Shown here: positions 425-48,398 of the stretch, one piece after another
Layout: each line of letters opens with the position of its first letter
Numbering within the stretch: position 1 is the first letter of the stretch
DNA from: an uncultured Gemmatimonadota bacterium
Lineage (GTDB): Bacteria; JAAXHH01
Direction: 5' to 3'
Assembly: GCA_951812955.1 (NCBI GenBank)
Contig: OX638340.1
Span: 1-64,000, forward strand
DNA length: 64,000 nucleotides
The notes under the pieces: model-generated
What the model was told of the DNA's origin: nothing
The model's database searches: none
What the model saw: only the letters and a program-made list of their open reading frames with translations
Translations under genes and position numbers: made by a program

Positions 425-1276
425 ATGGATCCTTCCTGCATTGCCCACTGCCTGACGGAAGCAGAGCGGGACCAATTCGATAAGCAGGGCTATTTCATCG
501 TGGAGAACGTCCTGGCGGACGACATGGTCAAGGCCCTGAACCGCATCGCGGACCGTATCGACGAGGAAAACCGGCCGAAAGAGGGCGACGGCGTCTACCG
601 TGTCCTGAACCACTTCGACATCATCGGCCGGGACGACCTGCTGCTGGAACTGCTTGACTGGCCGAAAACCTTCCCCAAGGTCTGGGGTATACTCGGCTGG
701 CACATTCAGCTGTACCATTCCCATTTAATCGTCTCGCCACCGTGGCCGGCCGGACAGAAACCCAGGAAACGGCGCCTGGGCTGGCACCAGGACAGCGGCA
801 GGCTGAACATCGACCTGGAAACCTCGCCCCGCCCGCGGATATCGTTGAAAGTGGCGTTCTTTTTGAGCGACTGCACGGCAACTGACCGCGGGAACTTCCA
901 CGCCGTTCCGGGTAGCCATCGCAGAGACGAAATCGAGTTTCCCGAGGACGACGAGCTGGATCCGGACGGGGCTGTGCCGATCCAGGCGGCGGCCGGCGAC
1001 GCCGTGTTCTTTGATCGCCGCCTCTGGCACGCTTCGGGGATCAACTATTCCGAGATCAGCCGCAAGGTGCTTTTCTACGGATACAGCTACCGGTGGCTGC
1101 GTCCCCGGGACAACATGACGGTGGATCATTACATGAGCCGCTGCGACCCCATCCGGAGACAGCTTCTTGGCGCCGGACCATCGGGTGGTCATGGTTATAC
1201 TTCGCCCCTGCTCGAAGACATCCCCCTGCGCGAGTGGATCGGCAAACACGCGGGCCGGGAGAACGTGGTCGGCTGA
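425..1276 (+). CDS. Phytanoyl-CoA dioxygenase (PhyH) family Fe(II)/2-oxoglutarate oxygenase
   Basis: 283-aa ORF. It has 'GYFIVENVL' at the N-terminus, 'WHQDS' (the HxD iron ligands) and 'GDAVFFDRRLWHASGIN' (distal His), which are typical of PhyH-family proteins. Confidence 0.8.
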   Translation: MDPSCIAHCLTEAERDQFDKQGYFIVENVLADDMVKALNRIADRIDEENRPKEGDGVYRVLNHFDIIGRDDLLLELLDWPKTFPKVWGILGWHIQLYHSHLIVSPPWPAGQKPRKRRLGWHQDSGRLNIDLETSPRPRISLKVAFFLSDCTATDRGNFHAVPGSHRRDEIEFPEDDELDPDGAVPIQAAAGDAVFFDRRLWHASGINYSEISRKVLFYGYSYRWLRPRDNMTVDHYMSRCDPIRRQLLGAGPSGGHGYTSPLLEDIPLREWIGKHAGRENVVG

Positions 1277-1312
1277 GACGGTGATATGCTTGGACAGTCC
1301 TCAGATAGTCCG

Positions 1313-1420
1313 GTCCACCCAGGTGGTCGGGTCCTCCCAGGTGGTCGGGTCCTCCCAGGTGGTCGGGTCCACCCAGGTGGTCGGGTCCACCCAGGTGGTC
1401 GGGTCCTCCCAGGTGATTGG
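1313..1420. repeat. Tandem repeat, 18 bp x 6 (gtccWcccaggtggtcgg)
   Basis: Units at 1313-1330, 1331-1348, 1349-1366, 1367-1384, 1385-1402 and 1403-1420. Only the a/t at unit position 5 and the last unit (gtgattgg) differ. The array is intergenic and ends at the start of the next ORF. Confidence 0.97.
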
Positions 1421-5705: not shown

Positions 5706-6386
5706 ATGCGTCGTAAAATACCGCTCATCATCACATTCATCATCGGCGTTGTCCTGGTCACAGGGTATTTCGTGACAAGGGGACCGTTCAACACGCTGTA
5801 TGAGAGTTTCTCCGATTATTTCGCCATCATTACGGTCTTCGCCTTCATCCTCGGCGGCGGCAGTCTGCTAAAGATTCATTTGAAACGCGTTTCCAACCGA
5901 TCCACGGACTGGCCCTACAGTGTGGTAACCCTGGCGGGGTTCCTCGTCACCCTGGTGATCGGACTGTTCAAGGTGGGCAATCCGGATGGGATGGGCGGGG
6001 AGATCCTGGCTGCCGGTTCCTGGCTGCGCTTCCTGTTCGACGGGGTCTACAATCCGCTGTCGGCGACCATGTTCTCCCTGCTGGCCTTCTTTGTCGCCTC
6101 GGCGTCCTACCGGGCCTTCAGAGCGCGTACGAAGGAGGCCACCATCCTCCTTTCCGCCGCCATGGTCATCCTGCTGGGCAGAACCCCCGTGGGCGCCTGG
6201 CTGACGGCCTGGATGCCGGAAATCCTGGGATTTCTCGAACTGCCGAACCTGGCCAACTGGATCATGGCCTGGCCGAACACGGCCGGCCAGCGTGCGATAA
6301 TGATCGGCATCGCCCTGGGGGTCATCGCGACCTCACTGCGCATCATCCTGGGGATCGAGCGCAACTACCTGGGCAGGAGGGAGTGA
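5706..6386 (+). CDS. Polytopic membrane protein of unknown function (226 aa, ~6 TM)
   Basis: Trimmed from ORF 5361..6386 to ATG 5706, 5 nt after the upstream TAG. It contains repeated hydrophobic helices, for example 'IPLIITFIIGVVLVTGYFV', 'YFAIITVFAFILGGGSLL' and 'YSVVTLAGFLVTLVIGLF'. Confidence 0.75.
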   Translation: MRRKIPLIITFIIGVVLVTGYFVTRGPFNTLYESFSDYFAIITVFAFILGGGSLLKIHLKRVSNRSTDWPYSVVTLAGFLVTLVIGLFKVGNPDGMGGEILAAGSWLRFLFDGVYNPLSATMFSLLAFFVASASYRAFRARTKEATILLSAAMVILLGRTPVGAWLTAWMPEILGFLELPNLANWIMAWPNTAGQRAIMIGIALGVIATSLRIILGIERNYLGRRE

Positions 6387-6388
6387 GC

Positions 6389-7288
6389 ATGCGGATTCCC
6401 GATTCCATCCTGCATATCGACCGGCGGATCATCTTCCTGCTCATCGGGGCGGCCGTCTGCATACCCCTGATCCTGCAGCCCCGCTTCCAGGACAGTCCCA
6501 CGCCTATCGTCCAGTCGATTTTCGACACGGTGGAGCGGCTGCCGTCCGGGTCGCGCGTATTCCTTTCCTTCGATTACGGTCCGGACACGGCGCCCGAACT
6601 GGATCCCATGGCCAAGGCCCTCGTGCGGCACACGATGACCCGGGGCCACGAGGTGTCCTTCTTCACCCTGTTCCCCGAAGGGCTGGGACAGATCAAGAAG
6701 ATCACGGACAACCTGCTGCCTGTGGAGTTCCCGGAGAAAGCCTATGGCAGGGATTTCGTGAACCTGGGTTACAAGGCCGGCCTGGGTGGCGCGATTAATA
6801 CGATGGTCGTCAACTTCCGAACGCTGATCAATGCCGACGCGGAGGGCACGCCGCTCGACGATCTGCCCATGACCGCGGATGTCGACGAGATGGTGGACTA
6901 TGCCATTATCCTCAGCCTGACCGCGGGCGACCCGGGACTGAAGGAGTGGATTCAGTTCGCGGGCGATATCGCGGGGATTCCCGTCATGGGCGGGGGCACC
7001 GCCGTGGTGGCGCCGGAACTGTATCCCTACTATCCTCAGCAACTGGTCGGCCTGATGGGCGGCCTCAAGGGCGCTTCCGAGTACGAGTCCGCCCTTGTGG
7101 ACCGGTATCCGGCCTACCGTAACGCCACCATGGACGCCACCATGCGCATGGGGCCCCAGGTCGTCACCCACGTGCTGATCGTCCTGCTGATCCTGCTGGG
7201 CAATCTGGCTTACTTCTTCGGCCGATCTGGCCGACCGGGCCGGAATGACCGGACGGACCGGGCGGACCAGGCGGACCGCAGGCGTTAA
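6389..7288 (+). CDS. Bitopic membrane protein of unknown function (299 aa) with an Arg/Asp-rich repeat tail
   Basis: AGGAGG at 6374-6379 lies 9 nt before ATG 6389 (GTG 6383 is an alternative). It has an N-terminal TM 'IIFLLIGAAVCIPLIL', a ~230-aa soluble domain and a C-terminal TM 'VVTHVLIVLLILLGNLAYFF'. The tail 'GRSGRPGRNDRTDRADQADRRR' is encoded by 9-bp repeats. Confidence 0.7.
   Translation: MRIPDSILHIDRRIIFLLIGAAVCIPLILQPRFQDSPTPIVQSIFDTVERLPSGSRVFLSFDYGPDTAPELDPMAKALVRHTMTRGHEVSFFTLFPEGLGQIKKITDNLLPVEFPEKAYGRDFVNLGYKAGLGGAINTMVVNFRTLINADAEGTPLDDLPMTADVDEMVDYAIILSLTAGDPGLKEWIQFAGDIAGIPVMGGGTAVVAPELYPYYPQQLVGLMGGLKGASEYESALVDRYPAYRNATMDATMRMGPQVVTHVLIVLLILLGNLAYFFGRSGRPGRNDRTDRADQADRRR
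7220..7282. repeat. Tandem repeat, 9 bp x 7 (GRCCNNNNN family), in frame at the 3' end of the CDS
   Basis: ggccgatct ggccgaccg ggccggaat gaccggacg gaccgggcg gaccaggcg gaccgcagg, followed by the stop TAA 7286-7288. Confidence 0.85.
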
Positions 7289-7299
7289 AGGAACGGCGT

Positions 7300-7974
7300 A
7301 TGGATGTTACACTGCAGCTTTGGATCGACGCGGCCCTGACGCTGATGATCCTCAGCTTCCTGTACCGTGACAATCCTTTCTACAAATTCGCCGAACATCT
7401 CTTTGTCGGCGTGTCCGCCGCGTACCTCATGGCAATCGGATTCTGGGACCACCTGGTCCCGAACCTGCTGGGCAAACTGTTCCCCTCGCTCATGTCGGGG
7501 GTCGTGCCCGGCGCCGTCGGCCGGTCGCCGGATTACTACTACATCATCCCCGCCGTCTTCGGCCTGCTGCTTCTTACCCGCCTGGTCGACCGCTGGGCCT
7601 GGCTCAGCCGGTGGGCGCTGGCGTTCATCGTCGGCGGCTCGGCGGGATTCAACCTGCCCCGCTTCCTGGATTCGGACTTCATCATTCAGGTCCAAAGCAC
7701 CATGGTTCCGCTCGTGGTGCTCGACCCGGCTGGCAATCTGCTCTGGGGCGCGAGTTTTTCCCACATTGTACTCGTTCTGGGCGTGATCTGCGGACTGGTG
7801 TACTTCTTCTTCTCCGTAGAACACAAGGGGATACTGGGACACGTGTCTCGTGCTGGGATCTGGGTGTTGATGGTGACCTTCGGCGCCGCCTTCGGATACA
7901 CGGTCATGGCGCGCATCTCCCTCCTCACCGGCAGGATGGAAGCCCTGGGCGCCTGGCTCGCCACCATGTTCTGA
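7300..7974 (+). CDS. Polytopic membrane protein of unknown function (224 aa, ~6 TM); last gene of the operon
   Basis: An AAGGA RBS precedes ATG 7300. The protein is almost entirely hydrophobic helices, for example 'LWIDAALTLMILSFLY', 'LFVGVSAAYLMAIGFW', 'IVLVLGVICGLVYFFF' and 'IWVLMVTFGAAFGY'. Confidence 0.75.
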   Translation: MDVTLQLWIDAALTLMILSFLYRDNPFYKFAEHLFVGVSAAYLMAIGFWDHLVPNLLGKLFPSLMSGVVPGAVGRSPDYYYIIPAVFGLLLLTRLVDRWAWLSRWALAFIVGGSAGFNLPRFLDSDFIIQVQSTMVPLVVLDPAGNLLWGASFSHIVLVLGVICGLVYFFFSVEHKGILGHVSRAGIWVLMVTFGAAFGYTVMARISLLTGRMEALGAWLATMF

Positions 7975-7988
7975 TTGGAGACCGTCGC

Positions 7989-8045
7989 GCGGCCCGGTCC
8001 GATGTCCGGGCGACCCGGTCCGATGTCCGGGCGACCCGGTACCGG
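7989..8045. repeat. Tandem repeat, 21 bp x ~2.7, each unit able to form a GCCCGG/CCGGGC hairpin; possible operon terminator
   Basis: gcggcccggtccgatgtccgg (7989-8009), gcgacccggtccgatgtccgg (8010-8030) and gcgacccggtaccgg (8031-8045). It lies 15 nt after the stop at 7974. Confidence 0.85.
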
Positions 8046-18695: not shown

Positions 18696-18813
18696 ATACC
18701 ATGCTCGGTCCGGCGTCAGGCCACGCCACGGTTTTTCGGACCCTGCGTAACCGGATGTATCGACACGGGCGTAAATCCCGTGTTTCAAGGAACGTCGACC
18801 GATGCGGAACAGG

Positions 18814-18936
18814 ATCAATCGGACCAATCGGGCCAATCGGACCAGTCCGGCCAGGCGGACCGAGTGGGCAAATCTGGCCAAGCTGGCCAAGCTGACTAGG
18901 CGGACCAGGCGGACCGAGCTGACCAGGCGGACCAGA
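18814..18936. repeat. Degenerate tandem repeat, 9 bp x ~14 (GRCCRRNNN family), immediately 5' of the methyltransferase gene
   Basis: ..gaccaatcg ggccaatcg gaccagtcc ggccaggcg gaccgagtg ggcaaatct ggccaagct ggccaagct gactaggcg gaccaggcg gaccgagct gaccaggcg gaccagaga, followed by ATG 18940. It is stop-free and in frame with an upstream ATG at 18802. Confidence 0.9.
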
Positions 18937-18939
18937 GAC

Positions 18940-19505: not shown

Positions 19506-20285
19506 CTACGGGTCGCTCGACCAGGTCTTCCTGCCCACGAAGAACGGTCCCAGCGAATCGATGTACAGGGCGGTCTGCTGGGTCTTACGCATGTCCTGGA
19601 CGACCCGTGAGAGCGGGTAAAGTTCCTTGCCGAGCAGTCCGATGACGAAGTCGTTGTCCGCCTCGTCCAGCCCGTAGCAAGCCAGGCGGATGTCGTGGGC
19701 GAAGTCGGCCCGGCCGTAGGCTCGGCCGATGTGGGCGTGCTCCATCAGGATCTGGCGCTGCTCCTTGTGTTCAAGGCGGGCGAAGGCGCCGTTCCGTCTC
19801 AGGGGATACCAGATAGCCCAGGGCCAGTCGGGATTGAGCACGGTGTTGCGCGGCCGGTGTATGAGCGATTCCTTCAGGTCCGGTTCGTATCCCATGGAGT
19901 AGGTCCTGCCGAACATCGTCATGTTTCCGCGTAGTTCCATCGCATCGAACGGACTGACAGTCAACAGGTTCCGGACGTCCGTTACGAAGGCATCCGGATC
20001 TTCGGCCAGGAACAGCACGCCGATACCCGTGGGATCGTTGACATCGAGATACACCGCGGAATCCAGACCGGATTTCCGCAGCGCGACGATGCATTCGCCG
20101 GTTATGTCCGGGGCCCGCCGGACGGATTCCCGGCTGGACACGGTGAACACATTGAGCTGCATGTACAGCCGTGTTTCGGCCGTCTGGGCCTGGCCGTTTA
20201 CTGGCGCTCCGCGTTCGAGTATATCTGGGGTCCTGCCGGTGTCTTCGTTCACGTCGCTTCCCTGCCTTCTCTTTGACGATTCCAT
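19506..20285 (-). CDS. Chlorite-dismutase-family protein, most likely coproheme decarboxylase (HemQ/ChdC)
   Basis: 'WAIWYPLRRNGAFARLEHKEQRQILMEHAHIGRAYG...CYGLDEADNDFVIGLL...VVQDMRKTQQTALY..LGPFFVG' follows the HemQ/Cld pattern. It is divergent from hemH. The start is uncertain (ATG 20285 chosen; the ORF extends to 20411). Confidence 0.65.
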   Translation of the reverse strand: MESSKRRQGSDVNEDTGRTPDILERGAPVNGQAQTAETRLYMQLNVFTVSSRESVRRAPDITGECIVALRKSGLDSAVYLDVNDPTGIGVLFLAEDPDAFVTDVRNLLTVSPFDAMELRGNMTMFGRTYSMGYEPDLKESLIHRPRNTVLNPDWPWAIWYPLRRNGAFARLEHKEQRQILMEHAHIGRAYGRADFAHDIRLACYGLDEADNDFVIGLLGKELYPLSRVVQDMRKTQQTALYIDSLGPFFVGRKTWSSDP

Positions 20286-20380: not shown

Positions 20381-21430
20381 TTGAACTACGACGCATTGCT
20401 CCTGGTATCATTCGGGGGCCCGGAAGGCGCCGCCGACGTCCTCCCCTTTCTCGAGCGCGTGCTCAAAGGCCGGCGCGTTCCCAGGGAACGAATGATGGAG
20501 GTCGCGGAACACTACCACCATTTCGGTGGGGTCAGCCCGATAAACAGCCAGAACCGGGCACTGATCTCCGCCCTTGAAAGCGCGTTGGCGAACCGCGACC
20601 TTCCCCTCCCGATCTACTGGGGAAACCGGAACTGGCATCCCTTGCTGGCGGATACGGTCCGGCGGATGGCCGCGGACGGGATCCAACGGGCGCTGGCCCT
20701 CGTTACGTCCGCCTACAGCTCCTATTCGAACTGCAGGCAGTACCTCGAGAACATCGAGGATGCCCGGCGCGAGGTGGGCGGCGGCGCCCCGAAAATCGAC
20801 AAGATCAGGCCCTTTTTCCATCATCCGGGTTATATCGAAACGATGGAGGCACGCGTTCGTTCCGCCCTGGACCGCTTGCCGGAAGCGCGCCGCGCCTCGG
20901 CGCACCTGGTGTATACCGCCCACAGCATACCCCTGGCCATGGCTCGGGGATGCGCGTACGAAGCGCAACTCCGGGAAGCCTCCCGGCTCATCAGCGCGCG
21001 CGCGGGCGCTTCCTCCTGGACGCTGGCATTTCAAAGCCGCAGCGGTCCGCCCGCTCAGCCCTGGCTGGAACCCGATGTCTGTGATTACATCCGGTCGTTC
21101 CACGAGACTGGCGCGGGCCGGGCGGACCGAGCGGACCGAGCGGGCCGGGCGGACCGGGCGGACCGGGATATCGTGTTGATCCCCGTAGGATTCATCTCGG
21201 ACCACATGGAAGTGGCCTACGACCTGGACATTGAAGCGCGGGCGTGTTGCGATGAGCTCGGGGTACGCATGGTCCGGGCGGAAACGGCGGGGACTCATCC
21301 CCGCTTCGTGGAAATGATCGTGGAACTCGTCGAAGAACGCCTGTCCCTGACGACGGCCAGGGCGGCCGTGGGTGTCCTGGAACCGTGGCCCGATCGATGC
21401 CCGCCGGACTGCTGCCCTTCCGGCAGGTAG
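20381..21430 (+). CDS. hemH: Ferrochelatase (probably coproporphyrin ferrochelatase) with a repeat-encoded loop insertion and a Cys-rich C-terminus
   Basis: TTG start 20381 lies behind GGGAGGAAG. Motifs are 'LLLVSFGGPEG', 'SPINSQ', 'YTAHSIP' and 'PVGFISDHMEVAYDLD'. The C-terminus is 'DRCPPDCCPSGR'. Confidence 0.85.
   Translation: MNYDALLLVSFGGPEGAADVLPFLERVLKGRRVPRERMMEVAEHYHHFGGVSPINSQNRALISALESALANRDLPLPIYWGNRNWHPLLADTVRRMAADGIQRALALVTSAYSSYSNCRQYLENIEDARREVGGGAPKIDKIRPFFHHPGYIETMEARVRSALDRLPEARRASAHLVYTAHSIPLAMARGCAYEAQLREASRLISARAGASSWTLAFQSRSGPPAQPWLEPDVCDYIRSFHETGAGRADRADRAGRADRADRDIVLIPVGFISDHMEVAYDLDIEARACCDELGVRMVRAETAGTHPRFVEMIVELVEERLSLTTARAAVGVLEPWPDRCPPDCCPSGR
21117..21170. repeat. 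Tandem repeat, 9 bp x 6 (GRCCGRGCG), in frame inside hemH
   Basis: ggccgggcg gaccgagcg gaccgagcg ggccgggcg gaccgggcg gaccgggat. It is translated as 'GRADRADRAGRADRADRD' just before the conserved PVGF motif. Confidence 0.9.
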
Positions 21431-21455: not shown

Positions 21456-22490
21456 TCAGACCGGGACCTCCCACCGGTCCATGGGTTCGGTGGAACGTAC
21501 CCGGCGCATGCCCGCGTCGGCGAACCGGCCGAAGGCCTTCTCCGCCTCCCCAGTAAAATCGATCACACCGGGAACGACGACCGGTGAGGTGCAGTCCTCC
21601 AGCAGGCAGACTTTCGCGGTCATGGACGGCTTGCGCGCCTCGAACTCCGTCCGGAGATCTTCCACCGTCCACGCCACGCAATGACTCTTGGCCTGCCCGG
21701 CCACGATGACGGCGTCGAAGGTCATCAAGTGATCGACCAGCGGCGAATTCCTGTCACCCACCGGATGGCCGCCGGCGTCTTCCATTACGTCGGGGCGCAA
21801 CACGGAGTAGTTCTCTGTGAGGGCATGATTCCCTTTGAGTTCGAAGCGGGCCTGACGGACTCGCGCGATGCTGTGAAAGAAAACCGCCTCCTCGACCGCG
21901 GACACCAGGGCGTGGCCGATGCCCCCGAGCATGGCGTGGTACGGCCAGATCATGAGCGGATACTTGCCATCGCGCGCGAGGCGCCGGACGTAATGCAGCG
22001 CGTAGGCGGAAAGATCGATCCGGCCGCCGAACCAGGCCTCCACCGTGGGATTCACACGCCAGGTTCCCTGTTCTACGTCGTCCGGGGTGATGACCGTTTC
22101 GCCGCCTATGGGATGTCCGCCCCCTTCGTCGACCCAGAACATCGGGTGGAAGATCTGCTGGGCCGTGTGGGTGTCCATCGTGGGGATAATCTCCGTAATG
22201 GAATGGAGGTTGCGGTAGATGAAGGTGCATAGGCGGTCGTTGTCCTCCACGGCGCCACGTCCGCTCCGTCCACCGACGAAAAGCTCGAATCCGGGAAGAC
22301 AGAAAGTGTTCTGGCAGTCCACCAGGAGCAGGGCGGTTCGAAAGGCATCCTCGACCGAGGGCCGGATCCCGCGTTCTTCCGCCCAATCTCGGGCATCCGC
22401 GGCCCGTTCTCCGTATGGGACGCGCCAGACCGTCTCGACGGACCCCGACGTGTAGTGGGGCGGAACGTCTCCGAGTGGTTTAAAGTTCAT
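21456..22490 (-). CDS. Isochorismatase-family hydrolase, nicotinamidase-like (long 344-aa form)
   Basis: '[10 protein letters not shown]' holds the catalytic Asp region and '[17 protein letters not shown]' the nucleophile Cys. Its start overlaps the nadE stop by 11 bp, so the two are co-transcribed. Confidence 0.65.
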
Positions 22491-24549
22491 CGGGGATGCG
22501 ATCTAAATCCGACAGCCAGACCGCCGGAGAAGCATCGGACGGCATCCGCCAGTCGCCACGGGGGGATATACAGGTCATGCCGACCTTGGGCCCTTCCGGC
22601 AGGCAGTTCCGTTTGAACTGGTTCTGGAAGAACCGGACGATAAAGACGCGCAGCCAGGTCTTGATCTCCCGGAGTTCGTACTTTCCCTCGAATGCATGCA
22701 TTGCCATCCGGGCGATACGCGAGGGCGAGAAGCCGAATCGCATGAAGTAGTAGATGAAGAAGTCGTGCAGTTCGTAGGGACCGATTTTCTCTTCGGTTTT
22801 CTGGGCGATCTCCCGCTCGCGCGGTGGCAGCAATTCCGGTGAAATAGGCGTGTCGAGAATGTCCAGCAGCACGTCCCTCACTGCCGACTCCTGTTCGAAG
22901 ACCTCGTCGGCGGTCCAGCGGATCAGGTAGGAAATGAGGGTCTTGGGAATCCCTGCATTGACGCCGTAATGGCTGGCATGGTCGCCGAACATGGTGCACC
23001 ATCCCAGCGCCAGTTCCGAAAGGTCGCCGGTACCGAGTACGATACCCTTGACCTGGGCGGCCGTGGCGAGTTCCTCCAGTTTCCGGGTCCATGCCTGGGT
23101 GTTTTCGTAGACGAGGTCTTTCTTGTCTTCCGAATGCCCGATATCCCCGAAGAACTGCCGCACCGCGGGTTTGATGTCGATCTCCCGGAAAGTGGCGCCG
23201 ACCGCCCGGATCAGCGTACATGCGTTCGAGTAGGTTCGCTCCGTAGTGCCCAGTCCCGGCATGGTCAGGGCCACGATGCGGGACCGCGGCAGGCCGAGCA
23301 GGTCCATGGTGTGTACTGCGACATTCAGGGCGTGGGTCGAATCCTGGCCCCCTGACACCGCCACGACGACCCTCCGGGCATCCTCGGGCAGCGATCTCAG
23401 CTTGGTCGCGAGTCCGGTGGACTGGATCATGAACACTTCGCGGCACCGCTGGCTGCGATCCGCGAGATTTTGCGGTACGAAGGGATGAGAGGGTATATCG
23501 CGCTCGAAGGTCCGATGCGCTACTCCGGGCGCCTTCCCGGCATTCTTCGAACCCTCTTCTCCAGCGTGGCCGGCATCTTTCGAACCCTCTTCTCCATCGT
23601 GGCCGAACCGGAATCCCGGAAGGTAAGCGGACCGCCAGGATGACTTGTAGTCCATGGCGTTCTGACGGAAAGAGCCCTGGACGCCCCGCTCCAGCGTCAG
23701 CGCCTCCACGTCGACGTCCGCGACGATGCAGGCTCCATCAAGCTGGAAGCGTTCGGTTTTCGCCAGCATGTAGCCTCGTTCGGCGATGAACCCGTGGCCG
23801 TCCCAAACCACGTCCATGGTCGACTCCCCGAATCCCGCCGCGGCGTACATGTGGACGGCCTCGTTGCGGCCCGATGAAGCCAGGACGAGGTCCTCCCGGT
23901 ACTGCGCCTTGCCGATGACGATGTTGGAGGCCGACAGGTTCGCCAGAATGCTCGCGCCCGCCAGCGCCGCCCTGCTGCTCGGGGGCACCGGAACCCAGTC
24001 GTCTTCGCAGATCGTCGGATATATCACGACCCTGGGATCATCCGTACGCAACAGCACGTCGGGTCCGAATGGCGCTTCCCGGCCACAAAGAGATACAGAG
24101 TCGGTCTGCGCTTCCGCGGCCCGGGCAAAATACCGCGTCTCATAAAACTCGCGATATTGCGGGAGATAGGTCTTGGGCGCAACGGACAGGATGTCTCCGC
24201 GGCTGCAGGTTACCGCGACGTTGAAGACCGCGTGATCGATCCGCAGGGGCATGCCGAAACTGAAAGCCAGGCCGGTTTCCCTGGTCTGGTCCAGCAGTTC
24301 CTCAAGCGCCTTCAGCGCACCGTCCAGCAGCGCCTGGGAATGGAAGAGGTCGGCGCAGGTATAACCGGTCAGACTCAATTCCGGGAAAAGGACATAGGAA
24401 GCTCCCTTCCCGCCTGCCGCTTCGATCTGCTCCAGGTGATGCGCCACGTTCGCCGCGGGGTCGCCCACGCGAATACGGGGTACGGCGATGGCCAGGCGCA
24501 CGAAGCCGTGGCTGCGCACATCGAGAAACTGTTCGGGGCTGAGTTCCAT
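22480..24549 (-). CDS. nadE: Glutamine-dependent NAD+ synthetase (CN-hydrolase plus NAD synthase domains, 689 aa)
   Basis: The N-terminal nitrilase-like domain has '[16 protein letters not shown]' and 'ICEDDW'. The C-terminal ATP-PPase has '[13 protein letters not shown]'. The linker between them carries an 11-aa duplication. Confidence 0.9.
23538..23603. repeat. Tandem duplication, 33 bp x 2 (30/33 identical), in frame in the nadE interdomain linker
   Basis: cggcattcttcgaaccctcttctccagcgtggc / cggcatctttcgaaccctcttctccatcgtggc. On the minus strand it encodes '[22 protein letters not shown]'. Confidence 0.9.
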
Positions 24550-45866: not shown

Positions 45867-48398
45867 ATGATACTCGGAAAACCGCCATACGCGGCCCGGA
45901 TGCGTAGCAAATCCCCTTTCCTGGCCGGCGTGTTGTTCTCCGCCTGCGTCTTCATCTCCGGAGTCGCGGGACAGGGGTGCGATTCCGGTTCCGAGCCTCA
46001 CCTGAACAGACTGGCCGGAGAAGCAAGCCCCTATCTGCGCGGCCATGCCCGGAACCCGGTGGATTGGTATCCGTGGGGCGCGGAAGCGATCGGACGCGCC
46101 CGCCGGGAGGGGAGGCCCATCTTCCTTTCCATCGGTTACTCGACCTGCCACTGGTGCCACGTCATGGAACGCAGGGTGTTTTCCGACCCCGGTATCGCCG
46201 CTTTCATGAATGCCCATTTCGTGAACATTAAGGTGGACCGCGAAGAACGCCCCGATGTAGATGAGATCTACATGGCGGCCACCCAGCTCATCACGGGCGG
46301 CGGCGGCTGGCCCAATTCGGTGTTCCTTACACCGGAACTCGAACCGTTTTTCGCCGGTACGTATTTCCCGCCGGAGGACCTGCCCGGCCGGCCCGGTTTC
46401 CCCCGGGTGCTGAACCTGTTGAAGGAGGCGTGGGACGCCCGCAGGGATGACCTGGTCGGACAGGCAGGCCGAGTGGCGGAAGCGATCCGGTCGCTTCAGC
46501 GCGACCAGGTCGCAGGAGACGGGACGGCGGTCCTGGACGAAGGAATACTCTCCGGTGCCCAATCGCACCTGAAAACGCGATACGATGCCGAAAACGGAGG
46601 ATTCGGCCCTGCGCCCAAGTTCCCGGCCCCTTTGCGAATTGAACTGGCGCTGAAAGAATACGAACGCACCGGCGACGGATCCCTGCTGTCCATGGCCACC
46701 CATACGCTGGACGTCATGATGAACGGCGGACTGTACGACCACGTGGGCGGCGGATTTCACCGGTATGCTACAGATTCCGGGTGGCGCATTCCCCACTTCG
46801 AAAAGATGTTGTATAACCAGGCAGACCTGGCCCGTGTCTACCTGCTGGCCTTCGAAATTACCGGCGAAACAGCCTACCGGGCCGTAGCCGAAGACGTGCT
46901 CGCCTTCGTCCAACGGGAGATGCGGGACCCCGGGAGCGCTTTCTATACCGCTGTGGATTCCGAGACCGACACCGTTGAAGGGCGTTACTACCTCTGGTCC
47001 GAGGAGGATATCAGGAAAACGCTTGGCGCAGACGCGGACGTCTTTCTGACACACTACGGCCTGGCGCCCATTTCCGGGACGGTCGCCGGAATCCCTGCCG
47101 TGGGTGACGTGGAAGGTGACGCGGTGGGCGTCGTGGATGGAGGCACGATAGGAGACGCGGAAGGAGATGCAGATGGTGACGCGGATGGTATCACCGGCGC
47201 GGGTGTCCTGTACGTAAGAACGGATAGGGATTCGGTCGGACCGCCCGACGGCCTGGATGAGCTGCGTGAAACGCTCCGATCGGCGCGTTCGAACCGAAAG
47301 CCTCCCGTGGTGGACACCAAGGTAATCACGGCCTGGAACGGCCAGATGATCGACGCCTTCGCCTACGCGGGGCTCGTGACGGACAACGGGCGTTACGTCG
47401 ACACAGCGGCGCGGGCCGCGGACTTCATCCTCGACCGCCTCTGGGACGACGGGTCCGGCCTCCACCGGATCTACCTGGAAGGAGCGGTTCATCGGGAAGC
47501 ATTTCAGGAGGACTACGCCTGCCTGATCCAGGGCCTGCAGAGACTGCATGAGGTCAGTGCGGAGCCGCGTTGGCTCGCCGCGGCCGAAATGCTCACGAAC
47601 CGGATGAACGAACGCTTCTGGGATACCGAGCGGGGCGGGTACTTCTTCGCGGAAGGCGGAGAATACCAGATCGTTCGCACGCGAAACGCCTTTGATGGCG
47701 CACGGGCATCCGGGAACGGCATGGCCGCCCGGTCACTGGTCTCAATGGCGCGCCTCACCGGCGACTATCGGTACCGGGCGCGAGCCGCACGCCTGTTCAA
47801 CGCATATGCTTCGTCGATGCATGAGATCCCCGGCCGGTTTACCTCCATGATCCTTGCGCTGCGGGACTATCTACACGACGAACGGATTCCGGTACAAATG
47901 GCTGGCGCGGATGGAGGGTCCCCCGCCGGGGAGCACGGGCGGAACGGAAGGACAGGCCCGGGAGAGGGGACGGACCCTTCGGGTGCGGGATTCGGCGGCG
48001 AACCAAAGGTCGTGGCCCGGCTGAGCGTCGTGGCGGGCCCGCGCGAGGAATCCTTCAACGCGACCGTATCGATCTCCATCGAGGACGGTTGGCACATTAA
48101 TGGCAATACGACTTCTGTCCCGGGACTGGTTCCCACGGCCCTTACTTTCAACGCGGATATCCCCATCGAGGCCGCCGCGATTTCTTACCCACCGGCTGAG
48201 ACGATGCGGTTCGCATTTGCCGACGCCCCGCTGGAGGTCTATCGTGGCGACGTCCGGCTGGGTGCCGATATCGATGTGGATCCCGGGTCCCTGGCGGAAG
48301 GCATGCTACTCTACGCGACCCTCTACTACCAGCCCTGCGACGACGCCGTGTGCCTCGAGCCGGCGGAGATCACGATGTCGGCCCCGATGCATCCGTGA
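45867..48398 (+). CDS. Thioredoxin-domain (DUF255/YyaL-type) protein with (alpha/alpha)6-barrel middle region and a C-terminal DsbD-alpha-like domain (843 aa)
   Basis: '[25 protein letters not shown]...[21 protein letters not shown]' is the DUF255 signature and '[25 protein letters not shown]' marks the barrel. The C-terminal 'GWHINGN...[13 protein letters not shown]' is DsbD-N-like. A signal-like N-terminus suggests the start could be ATG 45900. Confidence 0.8.
47100..47195. repeat. In-frame low-complexity Gly/Asp/Val repeat insertion in the DUF255 gene
   Basis: It encodes '[33 protein letters not shown]', with reiterated ggtgacgcgg / ggagacgcgg / ggtgacgcgg blocks. Confidence 0.6.

What the first reader, a model, noticed from the sequence alone, without database searches (positions are those of the whole stretch)
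21117..21170. The 9-bp repeat family inserted in frame inside ferrochelatase, just before the PVGFxSDHxEV motif
Six units encode 'GRADRADRAGRADRADRD' between '...YIRSFHETGA' and 'IVLIPVGFISDHMEVAYDLD'. Other ferrochelatases have only a short connector here, so this is an ~18-aa insertion of repeat origin in an essential enzyme. The array also has a 27-bp higher-order structure, (ggccgggcg gaccgRgcg gaccgRgNN) x 2, which implies duplication of a three-unit block. It is a clear example of the repeat family invading coding sequence while preserving the frame.
Basis: partly seen in the sequence, partly recalled or inferred. Interest (0 to 1): 0.5.

Follow-up and report, generated by a model that had tools for sequence, protein, structure and literature searches.

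The report
Variable 9-bp repeat inside ferrochelatase gene
A short 9-base DNA stutter has expanded in frame inside a surface loop of an essential haem-synthesis enzyme of a Gemmatimonadota bacterium; its copy number differs even between near-identical genomes, making it an ordinary slippage-type variable repeat in an unusual place.

Summary
Window 21113-21169 holds six head-to-tail 9-bp units (GCG-GAC-CGG type, with a 27-bp higher order). They lie in frame in a 349-aa coproporphyrin ferrochelatase gene (20381-21430, +).

Comparison with relatives shows a hypervariable coding VNTR.
- Genomes 95-97% identical in DNA carry 3, 5 or 6 units.
- Across the Gemmatimonadota clade the connector runs from 19 aa (the base state, ...G-A-D-R-D) to 55 aa. 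In 40 of 55 proteins the length is 19 + 3n aa.
- Basal branches and 53 of 63 outgroup proteins have the short connector.

The array therefore grew in place from a native single-copy seed. Nothing points to a foreign repeat inserted here.

It sits between a helix and the strand leading to the PVGFISDHMEV active-site motif, 16 residues before the catalytic Glu. The model gives low pLDDT there.

Two more arrays of the same unit in the window expanded from single-copy seeds in the same clade: 7220-7278 (a C-terminal tail) and 18813-18938 (a SpoU N-terminal tail). That clade is generally richer in tandem repeats.

Most likely mechanism: replication slippage, tolerated in a permissive loop, with no catalytic role. 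This is a new member of a known kind, of moderate interest.

The parts
20381..21430 (+). Coproporphyrin-type ferrochelatase gene (cpfC/hemH), 349 aa, TTG start; host of the array
   Evidence: ORF list. Pfam PF00762, E = 3e-83. Best solved relative is 28wn 'Coproporphyrin III ferrochelatase', E = 1.4e-74. AF2 model pLDDT 91.7; Foldseek top hits are B. subtilis and Listeria CpfC. The catalytic His (H181, AHSIP) and Glu (E277, DHMEV) align to the B. subtilis His and Glu known as H183 and E264 in that enzyme's standard numbering (my knowledge).
21113..21169 (+). In-frame 9-bp tandem array, six units (codon phase GCG-GRC-CGR), encoding residues 245-263 (AGRADRADRAGRADRADRD); a variable-number tandem repeat
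   Evidence: TRF period 9 x 6.1. Codon-level comparison with relatives: L001/L005/L006 have 3 units, L004 has 5, L008 has 5 degenerate units, and L007 has none. Fifty-five clade proteins have connectors of 19-55 aa.
21116..21142 (+). First 27-bp higher-order block (GGCCGGGCG GACCGAGCG GACCGAGCG)
   Evidence: TRF period 27, 2.0 copies, 96% matches, score 99, higher than the period-9 score of 82.
21143..21169 (+). Second 27-bp higher-order block (GGCCGGGCG GACCGGGCG GACCGGGAT); its last unit is the native seed that abuts the conserved R-D-I-V strand start
   Evidence: The final GAC CGG GAT is conserved in all near relatives.
19506..20252 (-). Divergently transcribed chlorite-dismutase-family gene (ChdC/HemQ-like), which places the ferrochelatase in the coproporphyrin-dependent haem pathway
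   Evidence: Pfam PF06778, E = 2e-12. The same 248-aa gene is called in all syntenic relatives.
18813..18938 (+). Second array of the same unit family, 14 units, between the conserved upstream ATG (18802) and the conserved DMETNFEV core of a SpoU-type methyltransferase; read in a different frame (R-R-T)
   Evidence: Unit numbers are 17, 15, 8 and 7 in L001, L006, L004 and L005. The base state in L007 is MRNRAGD-METN.
7220..7278 (+). Third array of the family, 6-7 units, forming the C-terminal tail (GRSGRPGRNDRTDRADQADRRR*) of ORF 6383..7288; same reading frame as in ferrochelatase (D-R-A)
   Evidence: Homologues: the base state is 284 aa ending YFISRRSRQR*, and expanded tails of 299-305 aa occur only in the window's subclade.

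Best explanation
The feature is a hypervariable, in-frame 9-bp minisatellite (a coding VNTR) in the coproporphyrin ferrochelatase gene of a Gemmatimonadota bacterium.

Shown:
- The ancestral connector between the last helix and the strand that carries the PVGFISDHMEV motif was short (...G-A/G-D-R-D) and contained one copy of the unit GCG-GAC-CGG.
- In one derived clade this unit has been multiplied head to tail.
- Copy number differs between genomes that are 95-97% identical in DNA.
- Changes come mostly in steps of 9 bp.

Inferred:
- The changes arise by slipped-strand mispairing during replication or by unequal exchange between sister copies.
- This includes one duplication of a three-unit (27-bp) block in the lineage of this window.
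- Because the unit is three codons, the frame never breaks.
- The array persists because the site is a solvent-exposed connector at the end of the beta-strand opposite the active site. Selection therefore only filters out lengths or frames that disturb folding.
- The added Asp/Arg/Ala stretch probably extends the preceding helix a little and otherwise forms a flexible charged loop with no catalytic role.

The same process acted at two or more other sites in this 64-kb window, in a lineage that is generally rich in tandem repeats.
For: - Repeat and frame.
- Copy-number polymorphism at the DNA level in syntenic loci: window 6 units, L004 5, L001/L002/L003/L005/L006 3, L008 5 degenerate, L007 0. 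Nucleotide identity to the window over 21 kb is 97.4% (L004), about 95% (L001/L005/L006), 88% (L008) and 81% (L007).
- Among 55 clade proteins the connector is 19-55 aa, and 40 of 55 fit 19 + 3n.
- The NJ tree built with the insert masked shows all basal branches at 19 aa, while sister tips in the derived clade differ in length, e.g. window 34 vs P0001 25, and P0004 31 vs P0002 42.
- The native seed is present in the base state.
- Structure: the AF2 model has mean pLDDT 91.7 but only 71 and 54 for residue blocks 241-250 and 251-260. Helix 233-251 is followed by coil, then strand 263-268. In alignments to 28wn and B. subtilis ferrochelatase the insert is a clean 15-16-residue gap, 16 residues before the catalytic Glu.
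- All 70-odd invariant residues of the family are intact.
- Two other arrays of the same unit expanded from single-copy sequence in the same clade, one of them in another reading frame. This argues for a DNA-level process rather than a peptide-level one.
- Syntenic 21-kb regions of the clade hold 4-8 tandem-repeat loci (periods 9 to 54) against 1 in L007.
- The general pattern that coding SSRs sit at termini and are avoided mid-protein is known (PMC3315296 abstract). Two of the three arrays follow it, and the third sits in a permissive loop.
Against: - No read-level data were available, so variation within the sampled population is not shown. Variation is shown only between assemblies.
- Neutrality is inferred, not measured.
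- The three arrays share almost the same unit (GACCGGGCG / GACCAGGCG) and the same strand. Generic slippage does not by itself predict this.
- Single-stranded folding of the array is no better than shuffles (z = -0.9 and +0.9). There is thus no obvious hairpin to explain elevated slippage.
- A few tips inside the derived clade have the short state (P0024, P0053, P0050, P0041, P0044, P0052). The direction of some changes (contraction versus never expanded) is therefore unresolved.
Confidence: 0.78

Rival explanations
1. Sequence-directed spread. The arrays belong to one genuine DNA family that is seeded or homogenised between loci (ectopic gene conversion or template switching from one array into sites with GAC-CGN microhomology), or is expanded by a lineage-specific factor that recognises the GGACCRRGC motif. 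Under this view it is not independent local slippage.
For: - Units at three loci in 64 kb are identical or differ at one of 9 positions, and all lie on the same strand.
- Other Gemmatimonadota genomes carry GACCAGGCK arrays at further loci, mostly co-oriented with the host gene.
- All three base-state sites already contain a GAY-CGN or AAC-CGG seed. L007 has the identical 9-mer GGAACCGGG at both the ferrochelatase and the SpoU site.
- Expansion at all three loci is confined to the same clade.
Against: - The same clade also has variable tandem repeats of unrelated units and periods (17, 21, 26, 33 bp). A general propensity is therefore enough to explain the arrays.
- GRCCRRKCN arrays turn up in many unrelated high-GC phyla, so the unit may simply reflect high-GC codon composition.
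- Unit variants are locus-specific (CAATCG / CAAGCT types at SpoU only). This argues against frequent exchange between loci.
Confidence: 0.12
2. Adaptive loop. The Asp/Arg-rich insert is selected for a function, such as contact with ChdC or an iron donor, a solubility or charge effect, or a length 'tuning knob' for enzyme behaviour.
For: - The array is retained in most members of a large clade.
- It is always read in the hydrophilic D-R/Q-A frame in this gene.
- Unrelated lineages (some labelled Pirellulales) also enlarged this loop.
Against: - Length and sequence are not conserved even between genomes 95-97% identical in DNA.
- Several clade members and all basal relatives do without it.
- The same DNA unit is read in another frame at SpoU.
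- Model confidence is low in the insert.
- The amino-acid repertoire (D/G, R/Q, A/S/T) is what point mutations of the DNA unit give.
Confidence: 0.08
3. Assembly artefact or pseudogene. The array would be a mis-assembly of a repeat, or the gene would be decaying.
For: Short tandem repeats can be mis-sized in short-read assemblies. The exact 349-aa protein is not on record elsewhere.
Against: - Independent assemblies, including megabase-scale contigs of 3.7-3.9 Mb, carry arrays at exactly this site.
- The frame is intact, all invariant residues are present, and the model is confident outside the insert.
Confidence: 0.02

Closest known systems
Variable-number tandem repeats / long simple sequence repeats in bacterial coding regions (for example the 6-9-bp SSRs of Burkholderia mallei/pseudomallei and MLVA loci of Xanthomonas; review by Zhou, Aertsen & Michiels 2014, cited in PMC12699852; Lin & Kussell, PMC3315296)
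   Same: Short units repeated head to tail, copy number differing between close strains, unit length a multiple of three so that the frame is kept, and slippage as the accepted mechanism. Arrays prefer protein termini and permissive regions.
   Different: Here the host is an uncultured Gemmatimonadota lineage and the gene is a core haem-biosynthesis enzyme, not a surface or contingency gene. The array lies in the interior of the fold. No on/off phase variation is possible.
Slippage-driven low-complexity regions in eukaryotic housekeeping proteins (e.g. Plasmodium falciparum LCRs, PMC3140889; vertebrate LCRs, PMC3523016)
   Same: In-frame, compositionally biased inserts that expand in surface loops of otherwise conserved enzymes. 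They are highly polymorphic and largely tolerated rather than required.
   Different: That is a eukaryotic phenomenon, usually with 3-bp units or homopolymeric amino-acid runs. Here there is a defined 9-bp unit with higher-order blocks in a bacterium.
Cyanobacterial STRR (short tandemly repeated repetitive) heptamer families (from my own knowledge, not checked here)
   Same: A lineage-typical short unit found as tandem arrays at many genomic sites.
   Different: STRR units are 7 bp and mostly intergenic, so they are not frame-preserving. The unit sequence is unrelated.
Lineage-specific loop insertions in the same ferrochelatase connector (Planctomycetota homologues P0066, P0067, P0071, P0072, P0081, P0109)
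   Same: Same position between the last helix and the PxGF strand, with similar added length (5-40 aa).
   Different: Those inserts are not repetitive and were not seen to vary in 3-aa steps.
Collagen-like G-X-Y triplet repeats
   Same: Three-residue periodicity encoded by 9-bp periodic high-GC DNA.
   Different: Gly is not at every third position here (D/G alternate). The array is only 6 units long and sits inside an enzyme loop. This reading is rejected.

Membership tests
Coding-region VNTR / minisatellite generated by slippage | Head-to-tail copies of a short unit, significantly above chance | tested here: met
   TRF period 9 x 6.1 and period 27 x 2.0. 10 matches against 0.43 expected.
Coding-region VNTR / minisatellite generated by slippage | Copy number differs between closely related genomes while the flanks are conserved | tested here: met
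   3, 5 and 6 units in syntenic loci at 95-97% nucleotide identity. The connector spans 19-55 aa across the clade.
Coding-region VNTR / minisatellite generated by slippage | Length changes occur in multiples of the unit | tested here: met
   40 of 55 connectors equal 19 + 3n aa. The rest belong to sublineages with a 20-aa base or with degenerate arrays.
Coding-region VNTR / minisatellite generated by slippage | Length heterogeneity within one population or over generations (an actual mutation rate) | not testable with these tools
   No reads or cultures were available.
Coproporphyrin ferrochelatase (CpfC, class II chelatase) | Ferrochelatase fold and domain | tested here: met
   PF00762, E = 3e-83. 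Foldseek against B. subtilis and Listeria CpfC gives E about 1e-27 and TM about 0.77-0.89.
Coproporphyrin ferrochelatase (CpfC, class II chelatase) | Catalytic His and Glu conserved | tested here: met
   H181 (AHSIP) and E277 (DHMEV) align with the B. subtilis His and Glu known as H183 and E264 in that enzyme's standard numbering, which is my knowledge. Both are invariant in 52 homologues.
Coproporphyrin ferrochelatase (CpfC, class II chelatase) | Genomic link to coproheme decarboxylase (ChdC/HemQ), which distinguishes the coproporphyrin-dependent pathway | tested here: met
   A divergent neighbour at 19506-20252 is PF06778 and is syntenic in all relatives.
Coproporphyrin ferrochelatase (CpfC, class II chelatase) | Substrate preference for coproporphyrin III | not testable with these tools
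   Needs an enzyme assay.
Mobile or inserted repeat element ('invading' family) | Empty site in relatives lacks any copy of the unit; target-site or terminal signatures are present | tested here: not met
   Base-state sites already contain one unit-like copy (GCG GAC CGG GAT, or GGG AAC CGG GAT). No flanking duplications or terminal structures were seen.
Collagen-like triplet repeat | Gly at every third residue over a long run | tested here: not met
   GRA DRA DRA GRA DRA DRD: Gly heads only 2 of 6 triplets.

The most novel reading that the evidence does not exclude
One Gemmatimonadota clade may have a lineage-specific, sequence-biased expansion process. It would act preferentially on GAC-CGN / GGACCRRGC seeds on the sense strand and would systematically lengthen loops and tails of housekeeping proteins, here ferrochelatase, a SpoU methyltransferase and a membrane protein. 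Possible causes are an altered replication or repair function, or a motif-recognising factor. This would make protein length in core enzymes a fast-evolving, strain-specific trait.
Probability: 0.12. Interest if true: 0.6.

Novelty: new member of a known kind. Interest (0 to 1): 0.35.

Why it matters
The case shows that a slippage-prone minisatellite can live inside the fold of an essential haem enzyme and change length between conspecific genomes without breaking the gene.

Practical consequences:
- The site is a ready-made strain-typing marker for this uncultured lineage.
- It is a likely source of mis-assembly and of spurious 'novel' protein clusters in metagenomic catalogues. Many 90% clusters here differ mainly by this loop.
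- It marks a natural permissive site in CpfC for engineering insertions.

If the shared unit and strand of the arrays reflect a directed process, the clade would be a useful model for repeat expansion in bacteria.

Tried and rejected
1. Exact-protein look-up of the 349-aa product found no record, so the source genome could not be identified directly. Relatives were used instead.
It shows that such arrays are widespread and read in many frames. It cannot measure enrichment or give a census for this lineage. A stricter pattern would have been more informative.
3. Hairpin-driven slippage: single-stranded DNA folds of both strands are no more stable than shuffles (z = -0.91 and +0.94). Rejected as an explanation.
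4. G-quadruplex: the sense strand at 21142-21167 fits G3-N2-G3-N6-G3-N6-G3 (read). However, the sister arrays of GACCAGGCG type lack G3 runs and expand as well, so this is not a common cause. It was not tested further.
5. Collagen-like repeat: rejected because Gly is not periodic.
6. Mobile element or insertion: rejected because empty sites already hold the seed and no terminal signatures exist.
7. Pseudogene: rejected because the frame is intact, the invariant residues are present and the model is confident.
8. Literature searches for a described 9-bp repeat family in Gemmatimonadota found nothing specific.
Distances from the insert to the active site were therefore inferred from secondary-structure order, not measured.

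Full report
**Observation**

Window 21113-21169 reads GCG GGC CGG GCG GAC CGA GCG GAC CGA GCG GGC CGG GCG GAC CGG GCG GAC CGG GAT. It lies in ORF 20381..21430 (+), 349 aa, and encodes A245 to D263 between ...DYIRSFHETG and IVLIPVGFISDHMEV.

Tandem Repeats Finder reports period 9 x 6.1 copies (score 82) and period 27 x 2.0 copies at 96% matches (score 99). A two-unit degenerate pattern finds 10 matches in the window against 0.43 expected, with none of 100 shuffles reaching 10. A scan for runs of three or more G-R-C-C-R-R-N-C-N units gives 8 array calls against 0.48 in Markov simulations.

Otherwise the description is accurate.

**The host gene**

The ORF matches Pfam Ferrochelatase end to end (E = 3e-83). 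Its closest solved relative is a coproporphyrin III ferrochelatase (28wn, E = 1.4e-74), followed by the B. subtilis and Listeria enzymes. An AlphaFold2 model built on 52 homologues has mean pLDDT 91.7 and pTM 0.91. It superposes on B. subtilis and Listeria CpfC with Foldseek E about 1e-27.

The catalytic His (H181) and Glu (E277) are aligned and invariant. C118, C340 and C345 are invariant and C344 is nearly so. From my own knowledge of Fe-S ferrochelatases, this suggests a [2Fe-2S]-type enzyme; this was not tested.

The divergent neighbour at 19506-20252 (-) is a chlorite-dismutase-family protein (PF06778). The same neighbour occurs in every syntenic relative. This is the usual signature of the coproporphyrin-dependent pathway (established knowledge). 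The gene looks fully functional.

**Where the array sits**

- In alignments to 28wn and to B. subtilis ferrochelatase the array is a clean 15-16-residue gap.
- In B. subtilis it falls after ...FEQKG and before YQAFVYVPVGF. That is 16 residues upstream of the catalytic Glu, known as E264 in that enzyme's standard numbering (my knowledge).
- In the model, helix 233-251 runs into the first part of the array, residues 252-262 are coil, and strand 263-268 follows.
- Block pLDDT falls to 71 (residues 241-250) and 54 (251-260), while the neighbouring blocks are at 92-96.
- The active-site motif lies at the C-terminal end of that strand, so the insert is at the opposite end of the sheet.

**Comparative evidence**

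A search of the large protein collection returned many close homologues. Those that carry a name are labelled Gemmatimonadota ferrochelatase, and their lengths run from 334 to 400 aa. Printing the region showed that nearly all the length variation is at this one site.

I measured the stretch between the conserved WLEPDV and PVGF anchors:
- The 55 clade proteins have 19 to 55 aa, and 40 of 55 fit 19 + 3n.
- The 19-aa state reads ...SFHESGADRDIVVV.
- Of 63 more distant homologues, 53 have 17-20 aa and about 10 have long, non-repetitive inserts.

An NJ tree built with the insert masked puts all basal branches at 19 aa. It shows a large derived clade in which sister tips differ: window 34 vs P0001 25, P0004 31 vs P0002 42, and P0007 25 vs P0005 37.

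DNA from syntenic loci was fetched through exact-protein look-ups. At the nucleotide level:

| Locus | Identity to the window over about 21 kb | Ferrochelatase array |
|---|---|---|
| L004 | 97.4% | 5 units |
| L001, L005, L006 | about 95% | 3 units |
| L008 | 88% | 5 degenerate units |
| L007 | 81% | none (GGT GGC GGG AAC CGG GAT) |

The array is thus a variable-number tandem repeat that changes faster than the surrounding sequence. It grew from a native single copy of GCG-GAC-CGG.

**The '9-bp family'**

The window holds two more arrays of the same unit, both on the + strand.

*Array at 18813-18938.*
- It has 14 units and lies between a conserved upstream ATG and the conserved DMETNFEV core of a SpoU methyltransferase (PF00588).
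- It is read there as R-R-T, a different frame from ferrochelatase.
- Relatives have 17 units (with a 45-bp higher order), 15, 8 and 7.
- L007 has only MRNRAGD before METN.

*Array at 7220-7278.*
- It forms the C-terminal tail of ORF 6383..7288, which has no Pfam match.
- The base state in most relatives is 284 aa ending YFISRRSRQR*.
- Tails of 299-305 aa occur only in the window's subclade.

All three arrays therefore expanded from single-copy native sequence in the same clade. Because one of them is read in another frame, the common denominator is the DNA and not the peptide.

Other Gemmatimonadota genomes carry GACCAGGCK arrays at other loci, mostly co-oriented with the gene and read as D-Q-A.

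Most hits were in Streptomyces, Kitasatospora, Myxococcota, Planctomycetota and others, read in many frames and on both strands. The unit type is therefore common in high-GC genomes and is not a private element of this lineage.

TRF on the syntenic 21 kb gives 4-8 tandem-repeat loci (periods 9, 17, 18, 21, 26, 33, 45, 54) in the window's clade against 1 in L007. The clade is generally prone to tandem duplication.

**Mechanism**

The simplest account is slipped-strand mispairing, plus unequal exchange for the multi-unit blocks. It acts on a short native direct repeat, and selection acts only as a filter:
- A 9-bp unit cannot break the frame.
- The D/G-R/Q-A/S repertoire is hydrophilic.
- The site is a surface connector.

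This agrees with the known tendency of coding SSRs to sit at termini and be avoided mid-protein unless structure permits (PMC3315296). Hairpin formation does not explain the instability. A G-quadruplex motif exists in this particular array but not in its GACCAGGCG sisters.

What slippage alone does not predict is that three arrays share nearly the same unit and strand, and that L007 carries the identical 9-mer GGAACCGGG at two of the empty sites. I keep a sequence-directed process as a minority rival at about 0.12.

An adaptive role for the loop is unlikely given the lack of conservation of length or sequence among near-identical genomes. An artefact or pseudogene reading is excluded by independent assemblies of megabase-scale contigs and by the intact gene.

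**Comparison with known systems**

This works like the coding VNTRs and long SSRs described in several bacteria, and like slippage-born low-complexity inserts in eukaryotic housekeeping proteins. It meets every testable defining feature of a coding VNTR. It fails the tests for an inserted mobile element and for a collagen-like repeat.

I found no description of this repeat in Gemmatimonadota or in ferrochelatase in the searched literature.

**Verdict**

Novelty: a new member of a known kind. Interest: 0.35.

Noticed in passing
window 18813-18938 (+): A 14-unit array of the same 9-bp family lies in the N-terminal extension of a SpoU-type methyltransferase and is read as R-R-T. Copy number is 7-17 in relatives, with a 45-bp higher order in L001, and the base state in L007 is MRNRAGD. 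Whether translation starts at the upstream ATG (18802) or at the conserved inner ATG (18940) is unresolved.
   Followed up: partly
window 7220-7278 (+): The same family forms the C-terminal tail of an uncharacterised membrane-like protein (ORF 6383..7288, no Pfam match). The tail has expanded from a 284-aa base state to 299-305 aa only in the window's subclade.
   Followed up: partly
window 23537-23605 (gene on - strand, 22480..24549): A 33-bp x 2.1 in-frame repeat (…[19 protein letters not shown]…) sits in the linker between the CN_hydrolase and NAD_synthase domains of a glutamine-dependent NAD synthetase. Orthologues are 626-700 aa, and TRF shows 2.1-2.9 copies in relatives.
   Followed up: partly
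window 47103-47189 (gene 45867..48398, +): A 12-bp x 7.2 degenerate in-frame repeat (GDVEGDAVG…[13 protein letters not shown]) lies inside a DUF255 / thioredoxin-domain protein. It was not compared with relatives.
   Followed up: no
window 1308-1415: An 18-bp unit (GTCGGGTCCACCCAGGTG) is repeated 6 times at 95% identity, just downstream of ORF 425..1276 and probably intergenic. It is the highest-scoring tandem repeat in the window (TRF score 188).
   Followed up: no
window 7989-8040: A 21-bp x 2.5 repeat (GCGACCCGGTCCGATGTCCGG) lies just after ORF 7300..7974. L130 has about one copy and L129 has unrelated sequence there, so this is another lineage-specific tandem duplication.
   Followed up: partly
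window 21456-22490 (-): A 344-aa ORF with no Pfam hit lies between ferrochelatase and the NAD synthetase. Gene calls of 344-359 aa at the corresponding position appear in L004, L005 and L007, but none in L001, L006 and L008. This is a presence/absence difference among close genomes. Its [10 protein letters not shown] motif resembles isochorismatase/nicotinamidase family proteins (my recollection, untested).
   Followed up: no
window 21398-21427 and residue C118: The ferrochelatase ends in CPPDCCPSGR. C118, C340 and C345 are invariant and C344 is nearly invariant in 52 homologues. This suggests a [2Fe-2S]-binding, actinobacterial-like CpfC in Gemmatimonadota and Planctomycetota.
   Followed up: no
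window 21142-21167 (+): The second half of the array fits a canonical G-quadruplex motif (G3-N2-G3-N6-G3-N6-G3) on the sense strand. Sister arrays built of GACCAGGCG lack it.
   Followed up: no
L001 13464-13515, L005 14171-14257, L006 13470-13511: A 17-bp tandem repeat (TGACCGTTACGAACCGG) in the intergenic region next to the NAD synthetase varies from 2.5 to 5.1 copies among genomes about 95% identical in DNA to the window over this region. This is another strain-level VNTR with a unit unrelated to the 9-bp family.
   Followed up: no
L033 4277-4348 and L064 7114-7185: Arrays in two other Gemmatimonadota genomes end with the same tail (…ADQETPQ*) and are followed by similar downstream sequence, so the two loci look orthologous (not checked further). 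The tails consist of GACCAGGCK units: 8 exact pattern units in L033, with about 10 D-Q-A triplets in the translation, and 3 + 4 pattern units in L064 inside a longer run of related triplets. The family and its variability therefore extend well beyond this window.
   Followed up: partly
P0122 name (F4Y38_10960) and loci L044 (IRC1_bin_16), L061 (SB0665_bin_8): Several related MAG names look like sponge-microbiome bins (my recollection, unverified). If so, the repeat-rich clade may be host-associated, which would fit the reported link between long SSRs and host adaptation.
   Followed up: no
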